From: a virus
Lineage: Duplodnaviria > Caudoviricetes
Strand: one strand, 5' to 3'
Virus record (IMG/VR): IMGVR_UViG_3300002895_000002
Span: 96,001-160,000 of that record
DNA length: 64,000 nucleotides
Shown here: piece by piece, positions 1 to 61,442 of the stretch
Layout: the number at the start of each line of letters is the position of its first letter
How positions within the stretch are numbered: the first letter of the stretch is position 1
Notes under the pieces: generated by a model
Databases searched by the model: none
Seen by the model: the letters and a program-made list of their open reading frames with translations, nothing else
Told to the model about the DNA's origin: nothing
Translations under genes and position numbers: made by a program

Positions 1-627
1 TCAAATACTAATAGCTTCTTTTTCGGTGCTGGGCATTATGTGTGGGCTAATGTTCCCTTTGACATAGTAAATGACATCGGAGAAATAATGTTTGCATCAA
101 CACAATCACCAAGTGGCAAACATTATGTGAAATCTAATGTACCAATGTCAACAACATCTAATCACGCGGTGCCAAAGACTTCATTATTCAATGATAACTA
201 TACATTCGGTACCATTGGTGAACTTGATCCATATTACACACCAACCGGATTTACCGGCGGCAGTGCAAGTTGGTCCATAAGTAGAAATGTTGCATTGGAA
301 GCTGTTGATCTGATAGGCAACGGCGGAGCATCCGGTGAGAACGTTTTCACTATTCTTTCTTTCGATGCACCAACAGACATTTCTGGCAAAACGGTGAAAT
401 TCCATTATAGCCTAGATATACCGCACATTGGGCAAATGGGATTCATTTATTATTATGTAGCAGGTGGAAGTGATATTGTTGAGTTGTTTGATACCGGTGG
501 GACAGTTCAATTTGCTGAAATAGTTCTACCGGCCGGTGTATCGGTAATAACATGGACTCTTGGCACGGCAGGAATATTAATACCAAACACTAATACATTC
601 AGAATGTTTGACTTGATAATCGTATAA
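1..627 (+). CDS. 5'-truncated hypothetical protein, probably a virion/fibre C-terminal beta-rich domain
   Basis: Frame is open from base 1 to TAA at 625-627; G/T/S/beta-rich composition; lies among late genes. Confidence 0.55.
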   Translation, partial: SNTNSFFFGAGHYVWANVPFDIVNDIGEIMFASTQSPSGKHYVKSNVPMSTTSNHAVPKTSLFNDNYTFGTIGELDPYYTPTGFTGGSASWSISRNVALEAVDLIGNGGASGENVFTILSFDAPTDISGKTVKFHYSLDIPHIGQMGFIYYYVAGGSDIVELFDTGGTVQFAEIVLPAGVSVITWTLGTAGILIPNTNTFRMFDLIIV

Positions 628-1656: not shown

Positions 1657-2424
1657 TTAGGGCCTCTCTGATTTAGATTTTCTCTTTTCCCAAGAGTTCT
1701 TTATTGCCTGTTTATGAGATTCTGATTTTTTCTTTCCTGTATGAATTTCTGATAATTTTTTCTTTGTTTCTTCGGACATTGGCTTTCGATTTTTTGCTGC
1801 TTTTTTCATTTTTTGTTTCGTTTCTTCGGACACTGGCTTTCGATTTTTTGCTGCTTCTTTCATTTTTTGTTTCGTTTCTTCGGAATGTTCTTTACGGGGT
1901 TTCCCTTTGTGGCTTTCACTTAAATTGTTTTTGTGTTCTTCAGAAAAGAGTCTACCTTTTAATGACTTAGAAATTTTGGCCCGATGTTCACTTGTAAATT
2001 TTCTGTCTTTGAGCGTATTTTTTATTTTTTGTTTTCGCTCATTATCAAGTAAAGAACCCAATAATTTGCCTTTATTTGAATTTCCAATTTTTTGTTTGGT
2101 TTCTTCTGAATGATTGTAGTTTAGGTTCAACCATTTATAATCTTTAGAGGTATATTTTCCATTATTTGACATATAGGAAAATGCTCTAGTCATTTTCGGC
2201 CCCTTGATTTTATGTCCTCTCCATATACGGGCAAGAAGTAGATGAGCAATGAAGTGCTCACGAAGGGGAAGATTTACTCTGTTCCAGGATCCATCAATAT
2301 CATCTATTCCGTCGATTTTTGCAAATGAACGAGGAATGATGTGGTGATCCTCTGTTTGTTTCTTTACTTTTGGGGTGTTACGATTACGTTCGATAATGCG
2401 GTTATAGATTGTTTGATAATCCAT
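1657..2424 (-). CDS. HNH homing endonuclease (MobE-like) with NUMOD3 repeats
   Basis: MDYQTIYNRII..EDHHIIPRS..NRVNLPLREHFIAHLLL; C-terminal HSEETKQK repeats; AT-rich. Confidence 0.9.
   Translation of the reverse strand: MDYQTIYNRIIERNRNTPKVKKQTEDHHIIPRSFAKIDGIDDIDGSWNRVNLPLREHFIAHLLLARIWRGHKIKGPKMTRAFSYMSNNGKYTSKDYKWLNLNYNHSEETKQKIGNSNKGKLLGSLLDNERKQKIKNTLKDRKFTSEHRAKISKSLKGRLFSEEHKNNLSESHKGKPRKEHSEETKQKMKEAAKNRKPVSEETKQKMKKAAKNRKPMSEETKKKLSEIHTGKKKSESHKQAIKNSWEKRKSKSERP
1771..1883. repeat. Tandem ~51-nt repeat encoding NUMOD3 units
   Basis: cttcggaca(t/c)tggctttcgattttttgctgct.. occurs twice in tandem. Confidence 0.8.
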
Positions 2425-2484
2425 ATAAATACCTTTAGAGAAGTTTTTAACTATCAAACTTATTTATCTACATCGGAGAAAATT

Positions 2485-46013: not shown

Positions 46014-46988
46014 ATGGCTATCATCATTGACAGCTCACACCTACTCGCCCGGTGCGTGCATGGCGGAAGAAAAGAGATTCTTGAGCGACCGGAGTATGCA
46101 GCTCACATGCTCTTCAACTCCATTCTCATGAACTCCCGGAAATTTGGAGCGTCAAAAGAGAATCCGGTTATTATGGCCCTTGACACCAAGCCATACTGGC
46201 GGTCTAAGTATTATGTCGAAAATAAGGATCAGTTCGTTGAATACCGGACCAACCCTAAGTATCAAGCATACAAAGGTCAGCGGGAAAAGGACGATACCTT
46301 ACCATGGGAAAAAATCTACGAGGTGGCTAATGCCTGCTACGCTGCGATTGAACAATATTCCGATTTCCATGTTGTTGGAGTCATTGGAGCAGAGGCCGAC
46401 GATATTATCGCTGTCGGAGCAAATCACTTCTCAGAAAAAGGACAACCTGTCACTGTCGTATCTTCCGATAAGGACTTCCAACAACTCCACAGACCAGGAA
46501 GAGGAGTCCAAGTCTGGGATCCAATCAAAAAAACCTTCAGACCAGACATTGACCCGGAGTATTACAAAAAGTTACACGCGATCTCTGGAGATCCCGGAGA
46601 TAACATTCTCCCTATCAAAAGAGGAGCAGGTCCAAATACAAAAACAGCTGAACGATATGCTCGAGACCTCGATACTTACCTTGCTACAGACGCAGAGCTC
46701 AGAGATCGTTACAAATTCAACAGAACACTCACAGACTTCGATTATATTCCCGTTGAAGTATCCAGTCGCATAGTTGAGGCGATTGAGAACCATACCTACT
46801 CATTCTCTGCAATGGACTTGATGAAAGTTTTCATTAAATACAGGCTCAATGCAATTGGTGAGAGAGTTCAGGAGTTTCGCCTTCCTGAGAAGACACAAGT
46901 CAAAACCAGCACCAGTGCGAAGGTATACAAGGAAGCCGCAAAGCAACAGCAGGTACTCAACAACACATTGGAGGATTTTTTCGGCTAA
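46014..46988 (+). CDS. rnh: T4-type RNase H / 5'-3' flap exonuclease
   Basis: IIIDSSHL; YWRS; YKGQR; AEADDII; SSDKDFQQL; GDPGDNI. Confidence 0.92.
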   Translation: MAIIIDSSHLLARCVHGGRKEILERPEYAAHMLFNSILMNSRKFGASKENPVIMALDTKPYWRSKYYVENKDQFVEYRTNPKYQAYKGQREKDDTLPWEKIYEVANACYAAIEQYSDFHVVGVIGAEADDIIAVGANHFSEKGQPVTVVSSDKDFQQLHRPGRGVQVWDPIKKTFRPDIDPEYYKKLHAISGDPGDNILPIKRGAGPNTKTAERYARDLDTYLATDAELRDRYKFNRTLTDFDYIPVEVSSRIVEAIENHTYSFSAMDLMKVFIKYRLNAIGERVQEFRLPEKTQVKTSTSAKVYKEAAKQQQVLNNTLEDFFG

Positions 46989-47167
46989 CAACGACCTAGA
47001 ATCCAACCTTCAGGTTGAGTGTTTTCATTATATAACCCACATTCTTTGTTATATGGATTATTATACCAACGTTTTCCTGAAGGTATTCCTTTGTTATGTG
47101 CTGGTCTTCCTTTTCGTGTATTTTGATTCTGTTCGATGATACGGTCGTAGATAGATTGATAATCCAT
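46985..47167 (-). pseudogene. Internally deleted HNH homing endonuclease (60 aa mini-element)
   Basis: MDYQSIYDRIIEQN (matches the MobE-like HEs) fused directly to a NKG..WYNN..PEGWILGR tail; no HNH motif. Confidence 0.8.
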
Positions 47168-47178
47168 GACAGTTCCCC

Positions 47179-47269
47179 TATAAATAGATGTGACAGGGAC
47201 AGCAGGGAAGTTCCCCTCTCCGTTGGTTGTGGTGGTCAGACCCAACCTTACCTGTTCCCTTTTATTTAT
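47179..47269. ncRNA. HE-associated three-way-junction element, copy E5
   Basis: GGAC AGCAG[GGAAGTTCCCCTCT]CCGTT GGTTG T GGT[GGTCAG]ACC CAACC TTACC. Confidence 0.75.
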
Positions 47270-47297
47270 CAAATCCCATGAAAGGTATAGAAATAAT

Positions 47298-47483
47298 ATG
47301 AATGTGATGTGTAACGCAGATCCCAAGACTAGACCTAGACATTGTTGTCAACGCACCAACCTTTGTTGTGTTTTCTGTCTCAAGATTAAAGACTGTTTTG
47401 CTGAAGCAGAAGCATGTAAGATTCAGAAACCATGTGACGCGGATTGTAACACTGTTGATGATCCGTGTCCGTTCGCAATCTGA
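47298..47483 (+). CDS. Small Cys-rich protein (61 aa)
   Basis: HCCQRTNLCCVFC..DC..CKIQKPCDADC..PCP. Confidence 0.55.
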   Translation: MNVMCNADPKTRPRHCCQRTNLCCVFCLKIKDCFAEAEACKIQKPCDADCNTVDDPCPFAI

Positions 47484-47491
47484 GGTGAGCC

Positions 47492-47614
47492 ATGGAAGAT
47501 CTCAATAAATGTTGGTCCTGTGGACAGGAAAATCAGTCTGGGGATTCTGTTTGTGTCCGGTGCGGTAAGATCACTAAAGAACCTGGGATATTTGACAACC
47601 CTGTGAATGGGTAG
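47492..47614 (+). CDS. Zn-ribbon micro-protein (40 aa)
   Basis: GAGGTG RBS; CWSCG..CVRCG. Confidence 0.55.
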   Translation: MEDLNKCWSCGQENQSGDSVCVRCGKITKEPGIFDNPVNG

Positions 47615-49862: not shown

Positions 49863-50695
49863 ATATTATAAAGTAAGCCAACAATCAATAATTAAATGGA
49901 TGAAAAAATATAACATCTATGATGAATTTAATTTTAAGCGTAATGTTGGTAAAGGAAATCTTGGAAAAACAATAATTTGTTCCGAAGAACTAATAATTCG
50001 ATTAAGAAAAATGGCAGATAATCGGAAAGGACAACCCGGCCATAAAAGAATACAAAGAATAAAGGAAAGGTGTTATATATGTGAACACGAATTTATAAAA
50101 AAAGAATCTGACGAAAAAAAAGTATGTTCTAAAAAATGTGCAATAGTTCTTCGAAGTATTGAAAATATAAAATCTATAAATGTGGTGTGCACATATTGCG
50201 GTACATTTATTGAAAAACCACTGTCTCTCATCAAAGAACATAATTTTTGTGATTATAATTGTTGTAATGCATGGCGAAAAGGAAAAACATATGAAGAACT
50301 ATATGGTGAAGATAAAGCAAATATTATTAAACAAAAAATAATGGCAAATAGATCAGAAAATACTATTATGGTTCTTACTCGTCCACATATCAAACTCAAA
50401 AAATGAAATGATTTCTAATGGGTTATATGATGGATTCCAAACTTCAAAGAAAATGTATCAATTTGAAATAGATGAATATAATCATGATTTACAATTATGT
50501 TTAGAAATTGACGGCGATTATTGGCATAATTATCCTTATGGAACACAACAAGATAAAAGGAAAAATACATTTCTTGCTAATAAGGGATTTACTGTATTAA
50601 GAATATGGGAACATGATATAAACACTAATTTGGGTGGTTGTATTGAAAAAATTAAGGAGACTATTGAATGCTTAAGCTCTCAAGCAAAGAAATAA
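49783..50695 (+). mobile_element. Vsr/DUF559-like homing endonuclease inside nrdJ, +1 frameshift
   Basis: Zn fingers CxxC; EIDEY..LEIDGDYWH..DKRKN..GFTVLRIWE; the two ORFs join if the A6 run 50398-50403 loses one A; late promoter at 49676. Confidence 0.8.
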
Positions 50696-52265: not shown

Positions 52266-53346
52266 GCGAAATGTTGTTAAAAACACAATTCATCGATGGA
52301 ATAAGACGATGGATTTATCGCAGTATTCCATCGATGAATTGGAGGAATTCTTACAAAAAAAATTATATTGACTTTCCGAGAAATGTTAGGTATAATATAG
52401 GAAAGTGGATTGGTTCAGGGAAACCATTATCTGATTATTCTATTGCCGCAGCAGCACAACATCGGTCTGTCTTTTCTACTACCTATATTGCAGAGAAAAA
52501 TAAAAGGTATATAGAAAGTCTTCCGGAAAATGAAAAAAAGATACGGTATAAAAAATCATGTGAGAAGGGGCAAATAACACGAAAAGAGAGACACGGTTCT
52601 ATTTCCGAATCTTATCGTAAAGGGTTAATCCTAAAGGGCCAACGAACCGCATTACTATTAGGAATAACCGACACATTGTCTGATACTGAATTATTGTCTT
52701 TATCCGGTTACCAAAAGAAAAATAATTACCAGTTATTAACGGAAAGTGAAAAAGAGAAAAAAAGAATAGCCTGGAAAAAACAAATCTTAAAAATACCAAT
52801 GTGTTTGAAATCATCATTTCAGAATATCCCATTTTTTCAACCGTCGATGTGAACCAGTTGTCGGATGAAGAAATAGAAACCTGGTATAGATGTTACCGAT
52901 CAATAATGTCTATTAGAAGAATGAACAATAAACATCATTCTTATGGGAGATCAGGTCATTATTATTCTAGTAAAACACGAAAGAAACATTATTACAGATC
53001 ATCATATGAATTGAAGTTACTACAAATTCTAGATGAATTTGAATTTGTGATCGATTATATGACAGAACCGTACCACATTACATTAGACATAGGAAAAAGA
53101 TATGTTCCCGATTTTGTGATTGAAACTAAAAATGGTCGAATAGTAGTTGAAGTAAAACCAACGTTTAAACTAAAAGAATTTCTCGAATCTAAAGGTTATC
53201 AATTATTTTCTCAGCTATCCAATTTCGTTATTATGACCACCGAAGAAATAGACCAAGGAGAAGAAAATGTCAGATCCCAGATTGTTGAATATACAAAAAA
53301 CGTCAGATCGCATACCAGCGAGCTACAGATCAGAAAAAACGATTGA
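52264..53346 (+). mobile_element. TnsA-like PD-(D/E)XK homing endonuclease between split-intein halves, two frameshifts
   Basis: YRSSYELK..RYVPDF..VVEVKP; continuity needs -1 at A8 52355-52362 and +1 at A6 52775-52780. Confidence 0.75.
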
Positions 53347-61204: not shown

Positions 61205-61442
61205 CGGAATCTCCCTAAAGATCGAAGAGATGGCAAAAGAAAACGGTGGGAGTTACATGGAGGCAGTTCTGGATTTCCAGGAGCAACATGAGATTCCTGA
61301 CGTGGAGGACATCACAGAAAACCTTCATAAGAACATCATCGAGAAGCTCAAGGAAGAGATCATCAGAAAGAACTTCCTGGGCAAAGACAGCAAGTTCTAT
61401 CAGGAATCGAAAGCAATCCCTTCCGAGTTTTTCGAGGACTAA
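61197..61442 (+). CDS. gp33: Late transcription coactivator
   Basis: SLKIEEMAKE..SYMEAVLDF..IIEKLKEE..NFL; size and proximity to gp32. Confidence 0.75.
   Translation: MLDGISLKIEEMAKENGGSYMEAVLDFQEQHEIPDVEDITENLHKNIIEKLKEEIIRKNFLGKDSKFYQESKAIPSEFFED

What the first reader, a model, noticed from the sequence alone, without database searches (positions are those of the whole stretch)
46985..47269. MITE-like non-autonomous derivative: intact RNA element plus a 60-aa gutted HNH gene
E5 and its SD-matched loop (9/9 identity) are fully preserved, but the gene keeps only the first ~14 aa of the MobE-like HNH family (MDYQSIYDRIIEQN) fused to a terminal DNA-binding tail. It lies ~35 kb from the other copies, in the replication block. 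Retention without a nuclease suggests the element is under selection for its own sake (promoter or leader for the Cys-rich micro-ORFs, trans-acting RNA) or is mobilised in trans.
Basis: partly seen in the sequence, partly recalled or inferred. Interest (0 to 1): 0.7.

Follow-up and report, generated by a model that had tools for sequence, protein, structure and literature searches.

The report
Gutted homing-endonuclease cassette beside rnh
A 309-base insert between the RNase H and primase genes of this uncultured T4-like phage is the worn-down remnant of a selfish nuclease gene: it keeps its promoter and folded RNA leader but has lost the DNA-cutting part, an ordinary stage in the decay of such genes.

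Summary
Window 46985-47167 (-) is a 60-aa ORF. Residues 1-17 match the N-terminus of this phage's 12 Mob-type HNH paralogues. Residues 18-31 are a NUMOD3 motif. Residues 32-59 are one 'WYNN...PEGW.LGR' module that is repeated in many homing endonucleases. The HNH catalytic core is absent. Upstream lie a late-promoter box, a three-way-junction RNA (covariance model 126.8 bits, fourth best of 16 genome copies) and a P3-loop 9-mer identical to the Shine-Dalgarno string.

New here: four related phage lineages (RNase H 73-53% identical) all have rnh followed at once by the conserved Cys-rich micro-ORF. So 46989-47297 is a discrete 309-bp insertion private to this lineage.

'MITE-like' is not supported. 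This is the only gutted copy. No solo leader exists in the genome, and the two copies found in other phages precede full-length nucleases. Selection on the remnant is neither shown nor excluded.

The simplest reading is a decayed free-standing endonuclease cassette. At least 5 of the 16 cassettes are broken. Persistence could come from small size, from constraint by the flanking genes, or from hitch-hiking on nearby endonucleases.

Earlier agents of this scan already reported the RNA family from other windows of this genome; this copy adds a nuclease-free case with mapped boundaries.

The parts
46014..46988 (+). rnh (T4-type RNase H / 5'-3' exonuclease), the left flank of the insertion. Its C-terminus (..FFG) has the same length as in the relatives.
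   Evidence: Pfam PF02739 and PF09293; alignment with relatives
46989..47297 (.). 309-bp insertion that is absent from four related lineages
   Evidence: gene maps; sequence; alignment A4
46985..47167 (-). 60-aa mini-ORF. Its stop codon (46985-46987) overlaps the rnh stop codon (46986-46988).
47117..47167 (-). Codons 1-17: N-terminal helix of the Mob-type HNH family (MDYQSIYDRIIEQNQNT)
   Evidence: tblastn against the genome; paralogue list; codon comparison; AF2 helix 3-15
47075..47116 (-). Codons 18-31: NUMOD3-type motif (RKGRPAHNKGIPSG). The deletion junction lies at about codons 17-19.
   Evidence: 86% identity over 14 aa to a motif lying 116-135 residues into HNH endonucleases (L120, L121)
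46991..47074 (-). Codons 32-59: one 'GKRWYNN...QPEGWILGR' module, predicted as a small three-stranded sheet
   Evidence: repeat module in endonucleases; pLDDT about 90
47171..47179 (-). Shine-Dalgarno string AGGGGAACU, 3 nt before the ATG
47179..47186 (+). Box 2: TATAAATA on the + strand (UAUUUAUA in the - strand RNA). A late-promoter-like site that points through the junction towards the micro-ORFs.
   Evidence: 17 TATAAATA sites in the window against 1.5 expected; this is one of them
47193..47255 (-). Three-way-junction RNA. P1 47251-47255 with 47193-47197; P2 47225-47247; P3 47203-47222.
   Evidence: (95% of cells paired, 14 of 18 pairs with changes on both sides)
47209..47217 (-). 9-mer in the P3 loop, identical to the Shine-Dalgarno string
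47263..47270 (-). Box 1: GATAAATA, late-promoter-like, placed so that a transcript would start at the foot of P1
   Evidence: ATAAAT invariant in 16 copies; the start position is inferred from T4 late-promoter geometry
47271..47297 (+). Outer flank of the insert. It now forms the upstream region (AAAGG ... ATG) of the micro-ORF, which in the relatives abuts rnh.
47298..47483 (+). Conserved 61-aa Cys-rich micro-ORF, the right flank. It is not part of the insert.
   Evidence: present directly after rnh in L106, L107, L109, L110

Best explanation
A free-standing HNH homing-endonuclease cassette entered this phage lineage exactly between the rnh stop codon and the start of a conserved Cys-rich micro-ORF. 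The cassette carried a late promoter, a three-way-junction RNA and the endonuclease gene. An internal in-frame deletion or recombination later removed the HNH core and most of the DNA-binding repeats. What remains is 17 N-terminal codons, one NUMOD3 motif and the last DNA-binding module. The remnant cannot cut DNA, so it cannot home by itself. Its regulatory end is still complete, and it presumably still drives late, RNA-controlled translation of a 60-aa product. No selection on the RNA is needed to explain its persistence. The remnant is small. Its two ends are pinned by the neighbours: the stop codons overlap on the left, and the micro-ORF's new upstream region lies inside the insert on the right. 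Other endonucleases sit 2.6-6 kb away and could carry it along by co-conversion. Shown: the anatomy, the empty sites in relatives and membership of the leader family. Inferred: the order of events, transcription, and the reasons for persistence.
For: Four related lineages have an empty site. The catalytic core is absent, while the N-terminus matches 11 paralogues. Residues 18-31 match a motif that normally lies more than 110 residues into such enzymes. The tail is a terminal repeat module of endonucleases, and the ORF ends 1 residue after its 'GR', as natural C-termini do. At least 5 of the 16 leader-bearing genes in this genome are broken: TGA at codon 15, three frameshifts, and this copy. 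All five keep an intact leader. This is the only gutted copy and there are no solo leaders. DNA similarity to the paralogues stops about 50-90 nt into the ORF, and no paralogue shares the tail. Published precedents exist for defunct endonucleases that persist and for host promoters embedded in endonuclease genes that favour retention (PMC2988022, PMC2790892).
Against: The remnant is remarkably clean. The ORF is in frame, the module fits its consensus closely (pLDDT about 90), and no junction pair is disrupted uniquely in this copy. The promoter, the Shine-Dalgarno string and the loop match are all perfect. A long neutral history would be expected to leave scars. So either the deletion is recent or something is selected, and I cannot tell which because no close relative carries the insert.
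Confidence: 0.6

Rival explanations
1. The cassette is kept for its regulatory parts. The + strand TATAAATA (47179-47186) and the outer flank now supply late transcription and the upstream region of the micro-ORFs and primase. Alternatively, the + strand transcript of the junction is an antisense RNA whose loop is complementary to the Shine-Dalgarno string and acts on this gene and, in trans, on the paralogue at genome position 61299, which has the same string.
For: TATAAATA is strongly over-represented in the window, and one copy sits in box 2. Both boxes are placed so that transcripts would start at the foot of P1 (inferred from T4 geometry). The 27 nt upstream of the micro-ORF start lie inside the insert. 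A-C mismatches on the - strand, which are G-U on the + strand, outnumber G-U pairs 7 to 3. The loop and Shine-Dalgarno strings of this copy and of 61299 are identical. PMC2988022 describes embedded promoters that favour retention of endonuclease genes.
Against: Relatives express the micro-ORFs with no such element. The only gene with a matching Shine-Dalgarno string, 61299, carries a TGA at codon 15. There are no transcript data. Thermodynamic folding gave no consistent change in Shine-Dalgarno accessibility.
Confidence: 0.2
2. The 60-aa product is a working protein. One possibility is a nuclease-free DNA binder that shields the site or represses a promoter, as the I-TevI binding domain does at its operator.
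For: The ORF is in frame and has an intact Shine-Dalgarno string and start codon. The module is close to its consensus and is predicted with high confidence. Nuclease-less proteins made only of such modules occur in the databases, for example P0015 and P0037.
Against: No homologue of similar length exists among 5.8 billion proteins. A single module is unlikely to give sequence-specific binding, since full enzymes carry 2-11 of them. The nuclease-less database examples may themselves be fragments.
Confidence: 0.12
3. It is a MITE-like mini-element that spreads as such, mobilised in trans by a full-length relative.
For: The insert is discrete and has intact ends. Trans-homing of a defunct endonuclease is documented in T4 (PMC2790892). 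Endonuclease genes lie 2.6-6 kb downstream in the reductase gene.
Against: There is one copy only, and no mini copies or solo leaders in this genome. The two instances found in other phages precede full-length nucleases. There are no terminal repeats or target duplication at the insert ends. Homing moves DNA to the same site in a naive genome, not to new sites, so a family of dispersed minis is not expected.
Confidence: 0.05

Closest known systems
Defunct I-TevIII of phage T4, carried along by mobE (Wilson and Edgell 2009, PMC2790892)
   Same: A homing-endonuclease gene that has lost its activity, stays in a T4-type genome, lies near other endonuclease genes and has no mobility of its own.
   Different: I-TevIII lies in a group I intron, and its trans-mobilisation has been shown. 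Here the remnant is free-standing and far more reduced (60 aa), and hitch-hiking is only a possibility.
Late promoter plus leader RNA control of T-even endonuclease genes (I-TevI, I-TevII, I-TevIII, segB, Aeh1 mobE; review PMC2988022)
   Same: A late promoter and a folded RNA lie directly upstream of the endonuclease start. The arrangement is shared by HNH and GIY-YIG genes.
   Different: Those are simple hairpins that bury the ribosome-binding site, with the promoter inside the hairpin. Here the RNA is a three-way junction flanked by two inverted late-promoter boxes, and one loop repeats the ribosome-binding string. It is absent from Rfam 15.
Homing-endonuclease life cycle of invasion, fixation, degeneration and loss (Goddard and Burt 1999; from my own knowledge, cited in PMC2988022 as the cyclical model)
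   Same: One genome holds intact, nonsense, frameshifted and gutted copies. This copy represents the late degeneration stage.
   Different: That model was worked out for yeast intron-encoded enzymes. Here precise loss is hindered by tightly packed flanking genes.
MITEs (miniature inverted-repeat transposable elements)
   Same: A short, non-autonomous derivative of a mobile gene.
   Different: It has no family of copies, no terminal inverted repeats at the insert ends, no target-site duplication and no transposase logic.

Membership tests
Mob-type free-standing HNH homing endonucleases of T4-like phages | HNH (beta-beta-alpha-metal) catalytic core, here DHHIIP...N...EH..AH | tested here: not met
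   Pfam finds no domain. Comparison with the 11 paralogues shows the core is missing.
Mob-type free-standing HNH homing endonucleases of T4-like phages | Family N-terminus M(D/N)YQ.IY.R(I/L)I | tested here: met
   17 of 17 residues align, up to 82% identical, E 3.7e-6. The full-length paralogues are about 35% identical to annotated homing endonucleases of T4-like coliphages. Likeness to MobE itself was not tested.
Mob-type free-standing HNH homing endonucleases of T4-like phages | C-terminal DNA-binding repeats (NUMOD3 and others) | tested here: inconclusive
   One NUMOD3-type motif and one WYNN/PEGW module remain, against 2-11 in full-length enzymes. DNA binding was not tested.
Three-way-junction leader cassette of this phage's endonuclease genes (not in Rfam) | P1, P2 and P3 with the junction strands GUAAG, CAA and YUGUCC | tested here: met
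   Alignment A2 and pair counts. Covariance model 126.8 bits, E 2.5e-24.
Three-way-junction leader cassette of this phage's endonuclease genes (not in Rfam) | Inverted ATAAATA / TATTTAT boxes on either side of the junction | tested here: met
   GATAAATA at 47270-47263 (-) and TATAAATA at 47179-47186 (+).
Three-way-junction leader cassette of this phage's endonuclease genes (not in Rfam) | The P3 loop repeats the gene's own Shine-Dalgarno string | tested here: met
   9 of 9 in this copy. Across the 16 copies the mean shared string is 7.5 nt with a copy's own gene and 4.8 nt with other copies' genes.
MITE-like non-autonomous element family | Several dispersed copies of the short derivative | tested here: not met
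   The covariance model finds 16 genome copies and 2 in other phages, each before an endonuclease-length gene. This is the only gutted one.
MITE-like non-autonomous element family | Terminal inverted repeats and target-site duplication at the insert ends | tested here: not met
   The insert ends (46989 and 47297) show neither when compared with the empty sites.
Defunct endonuclease mobilised in trans (I-TevIII / mobE type) | An active endonuclease cutting within co-conversion distance in naive genomes | not testable with these tools
   DUF559-type and TnsA-like endonuclease genes lie at window 50408-50695 and 52801-53346. Their cleavage sites are unknown.

The most novel reading that the evidence does not exclude
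The nuclease-free cassette is kept because its RNA circuit or its 60-aa DNA-binding peptide has been taken over by the phage. It could act as a late promoter and leader for the micro-ORF and primase genes, as a trans-acting antisense regulator, or as a site-shielding protein. That would be a case of a selfish nuclease cassette being domesticated.
Probability: 0.2. Interest if true: 0.6.

Novelty: new member of a known kind. Interest (0 to 1): 0.3.

Why it matters
The remnant itself is an expected stage of endonuclease decay. Its value is practical. Comparison of filled and empty sites gives base-exact ends for one cassette of an undescribed RNA-controlled family. It is also a natural nuclease-free copy, so the promoter boxes, the three-way junction and the loop/Shine-Dalgarno match can be tested with reporters without a toxic nuclease. 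In addition, at least five of the 16 cassettes in one genome are in visible decay.

Tried and rejected
- blastn of the region against 50,697 phage records found no match.
- RNase H relatives in IMG/VR reach at most 32% identity and were of no use for synteny. Closer relatives came from the protein collection.
- The mini-protein matched only itself among proteins of similar length and nothing among longer ones.
- Scans of IMG/VR and JGI metagenomes with the mini-protein found only NUMOD3 or module matches in unrelated endonucleases, with no full-length ancestor and no second mini copy.
- Rfam 15 gave no hit at gathering scores on the whole window, nor at E up to 10 on six copies.
- Foldseek against the PDB gave nothing below E 1, and a profile search of PDB sequences gave only weak WW-domain hits.
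- An anti-Shine-Dalgarno model, in which the 3' arm of P3 pairs with the real Shine-Dalgarno string, fits this copy but not the GAGGUGAAA copies. I rejected it as a general rule.
- A leader peptide starting at the conserved YUG after P3 was rejected: the indels downstream are not multiples of three.
- Predicted Shine-Dalgarno accessibility in late versus read-through transcripts showed no consistent difference over the 16 copies.
- A second contig carrying the identical RNase H turned out to be the same phage, so it gave no population data.
- The 86-aa and 113-aa readings of the ORF, which start inside the RNA junction, were rejected as annotation artefacts.

Full report
**What is there.** The window is bases 96,001-160,000 of a 213,116-bp uncultured T4-like virus record. 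On the minus strand, 47167..46985 encodes a 60-aa protein. Its stop codon (46985-46987) shares two bases with the stop codon of the convergent rnh gene (46014-46988; Pfam 5'-3' exonuclease plus T4 RNase H C-terminal domain). Pfam finds nothing in the 60 residues. PHROGs gives only a marginal match of residues 29-59 to the C-terminus of an HNH endonuclease family (E 0.047).

**The three pieces of the mini-protein.**
- Residues 1-17 (MDYQSIYDRIIEQNQNT) match the N-termini of 11 other HNH genes in the same genome, best 82% identity, E 3.7e-6. The full-length paralogues are about 35% identical to annotated homing endonucleases of T4-like coliphages. After residue 17 the paralogues continue with ..PKIKKQTEDHHIIPRS.., the first part of the HNH core. 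The mini-protein does not.
- Residues 18-31 (RKGRPAHNKGIPSG) are a NUMOD3-type motif. In other phages almost the same string (TMKGRPAHNKGIPA, 86% over 14 residues) lies 116-135 residues into HNH endonucleases, after the catalytic core.
- Residues 32-59 (GKRWYNNPYNKECGLYNENTQPEGWILGR) match a module that occurs 2-11 times per protein in 45 other representatives out of 1.84 billion. Several of these carry GIY-YIG and NUMOD3 domains.

AlphaFold2 predicts a helix at residues 3-15, a loose linker, and a small three-stranded sheet for the module with pLDDT about 90. No solved structure matches it. DNA binding by the tail is inferred from its company only.

**The RNA element.** Alignment of all copies shows, in order:
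- a box (T/G)ATAAATA;
- a three-way junction: P1, 5 bp; P2, 5 plus 3 bp; P3, 3-5 bp with an 8-10 nt loop;
- a box TATTTAT;
- the Shine-Dalgarno region and the start codon.

On 16 copies, 95.2% of cells form pairs and 14 of 18 pairs show changes on both sides. No shuffle and no slid register comes near these values. Rfam 15 has no match.

In this copy the coordinates are:
- box 1: 47270-47263;
- the junction: 47255-47193;
- box 2: 47186-47179;
- Shine-Dalgarno string: 47179-47171;
- the identical 9-mer in the P3 loop: 47217-47209.

Across copies, the string shared between the loop and a copy's own Shine-Dalgarno region averages 7.5 nt, against 4.8 nt for other copies' regions. There are at least six different strings. 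The covariance model scores this copy at 126.8 bits, fourth of 16. It has one G-U and one A-C, and the A-C is shared with three other copies. The element is intact.

**Genome context corrects the picture from the window.** The genome holds 16 copies, not 5. All are on the minus strand and each precedes an HNH or GIY-YIG gene. With filters off, the model finds no further copy in the window. Two more copies turned up in other phages (L105, L136). Both precede full-length GIY-YIG genes, and both again show a loop/Shine-Dalgarno match.

No solo leader and no second gutted copy was found. That argues against a MITE-like family.

At least five of the 16 genes are visibly broken:
- TGA at codon 15 (genome position 61299);
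- a frameshift at 193230;
- frameshifts in two GIY-YIG genes (window 5126 and 12259);
- this copy.

All five keep an intact leader (87-135 bits). This fits the larger mutational target of the ORFs and does not by itself show selection on the leader.

**The decisive comparison.** The protein collection holds RNase H relatives at 73, 64, 55 and 53% identity. In all four lineages the gene order is dnaB, rnh, a 61-64-aa Cys-rich ORF, then primase. The micro-ORF starts either overlapping the rnh stop (ATGA in L106) or 9-15 nt after it. The alignment shows one clean gap: window 46989-47297, 309 bp, has no counterpart.

So the cassette is an insertion private to this lineage. The micro-ORFs are conserved host genes and are not part of it. 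The 27 nt between box 1 and the micro-ORF start belong to the insert. Neither was any relative that carries the remnant, so the age of the deletion cannot be set.

**Origin.** DNA similarity to the paralogous cassettes runs from the promoter to about 50-90 nt into the ORF and then stops. No paralogue has the WYNN tail on an HNH gene. The leader is closest (about 82%) to the copies at 61299 and 206380, whose genes end differently. The remnant is therefore not a recent deletion derivative of any gene still present in this genome.

Two origins fit. It may descend from a distinct HNH gene with a NUMOD3 motif and a WYNN tail. Or it may be a recombinant between a leader-plus-N-terminus and the 3' end of a different resident endonuclease. 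The ORF ends one residue after the module's 'GR', as natural C-termini of such proteins do. Both natural ends of a cassette are therefore present and the interior is missing.

**How it probably works now.** TATAAATA occurs 17 times in the window against 1.5 expected, so it is very likely this phage's late promoter, as in T4. By T4 geometry (my inference), box 1 would start the minus-strand mRNA at the foot of P1. Box 2, read on the plus strand, would start a transcript at the other foot of P1. That transcript would run antisense through the junction, past a U-rich tract, towards the micro-ORFs.

Earlier agents of this scan proposed that this plus-strand RNA is an antisense regulator whose loop pairs with the Shine-Dalgarno string. 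I saw the inverted boxes independently. I also found that A-C mismatches on the minus strand, which are G-U on the plus strand, outnumber G-U pairs 7 to 3. This is a weak lean and the strand remains unresolved. Folding energies gave no consistent switch in Shine-Dalgarno accessibility.

Whatever the circuit does, here it governs a product that cannot cut DNA.

**Why it persists.** Three ordinary reasons are enough.
- It is small and harmless.
- Deletions that go beyond it would damage rnh, or the upstream region of the micro-ORF that now lies inside the insert. The T4 review notes that such embedded signals favour retention of endonuclease genes (PMC2988022).
- Other endonuclease genes sit 2.6-6 kb downstream in the split reductase gene. 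A defunct endonuclease can be carried along by a neighbour's homing, as mobE does for I-TevIII (PMC2790892).

Against pure neutrality stands the cleanness of the remnant: an in-frame ORF, a near-consensus module and a flawless leader. I put neutral or constrained decay at about 0.6 and some retained function at about 0.3 in all. Spread as a MITE-like mini-element gets about 0.05.

**Verdict.** As an object this is a new member of a known kind, a degenerate homing-endonuclease gene. It sits in an RNA-controlled cassette family that is not in Rfam and that this scan has already reported from other windows of the same genome. What this copy adds is the base-exact insertion boundary and a natural nuclease-free copy for experiments.

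Noticed in passing
window 32-59 of the mini-protein (46991-47074); proteins P0002-P0046: The 'GK.WYNNG...F.EG.QPEGW..GR' module has no Pfam model. It occurs 2-11 times per protein in GIY-YIG and NUMOD3 homing endonucleases and is predicted as a small three-stranded, WW-like sheet. It looks like an unnamed DNA-binding repeat of homing endonucleases.
   Followed up: partly
window 47298-47483 and 47492-47614; L106 6972-7290; L107 6989-7300: A 61-aa Cys-rich ORF (..CC.FC..DCFAEAEA..PC..DPCPF) and a 40-aa zinc-ribbon ORF lie between rnh and primase in this phage. In the closest relative the first overlaps the rnh stop. The Cys-rich ORF is found in all four related lineages; the zinc-ribbon ORF I confirmed in L106 and L107. 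They are real conserved genes of unknown function.
   Followed up: partly
genome positions 61299, 193230; window 5126 and 12259: Four further leader-bearing endonuclease genes are broken (TGA at codon 15; frameshifts), yet their leaders are intact. I could not exclude sequencing errors or programmed frameshifts.
   Followed up: partly
genome position 61299 compared with window 47171-47217: This copy and the cassette at 61299 share identical loop and Shine-Dalgarno strings (AGGGGAACU, and the same 15 nt up to the ATG), while P1 differs by two compensated pairs. The two cassettes would have the same regulatory specificity.
   Followed up: partly
L110 4337-4954 (-), L111 3985-4572 (-): Relatives at 53% RNase H identity carry a GIY-YIG endonuclease on the minus strand directly upstream of rnh. 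Only about 46 nt separate it from rnh and it has no three-way-junction leader. The rnh neighbourhood is a repeated landing place for endonucleases.
   Followed up: partly
L105 1340-1465 (-), L136 4181-4310 (-): The leader family occurs in two other uncultured phages, in front of GIY-YIG genes. There too the P3 loop matches the gene's own Shine-Dalgarno region (6 nt and 8 nt).
   Followed up: partly
window 2424-2431 and genome position 211949 (+): Two HNH paralogues have the late-promoter box and a Shine-Dalgarno region but no three-way junction. One of them is the only family member on the plus strand.
   Followed up: no
window 47004-47017 (+): A terminator-like hairpin (CAACCTTCAGGTTG followed by a T-rich run) lies just after the rnh stop. 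On the other strand the same bases encode the conserved QPEGW of the module, so the palindrome may be incidental.
   Followed up: no
window 50408-50695 and 52801-53346: Plus-strand DUF559 (Vsr-like) and TnsA-like endonuclease genes interrupt the ribonucleotide reductase gene 3-6 kb from the remnant.
   Followed up: partly
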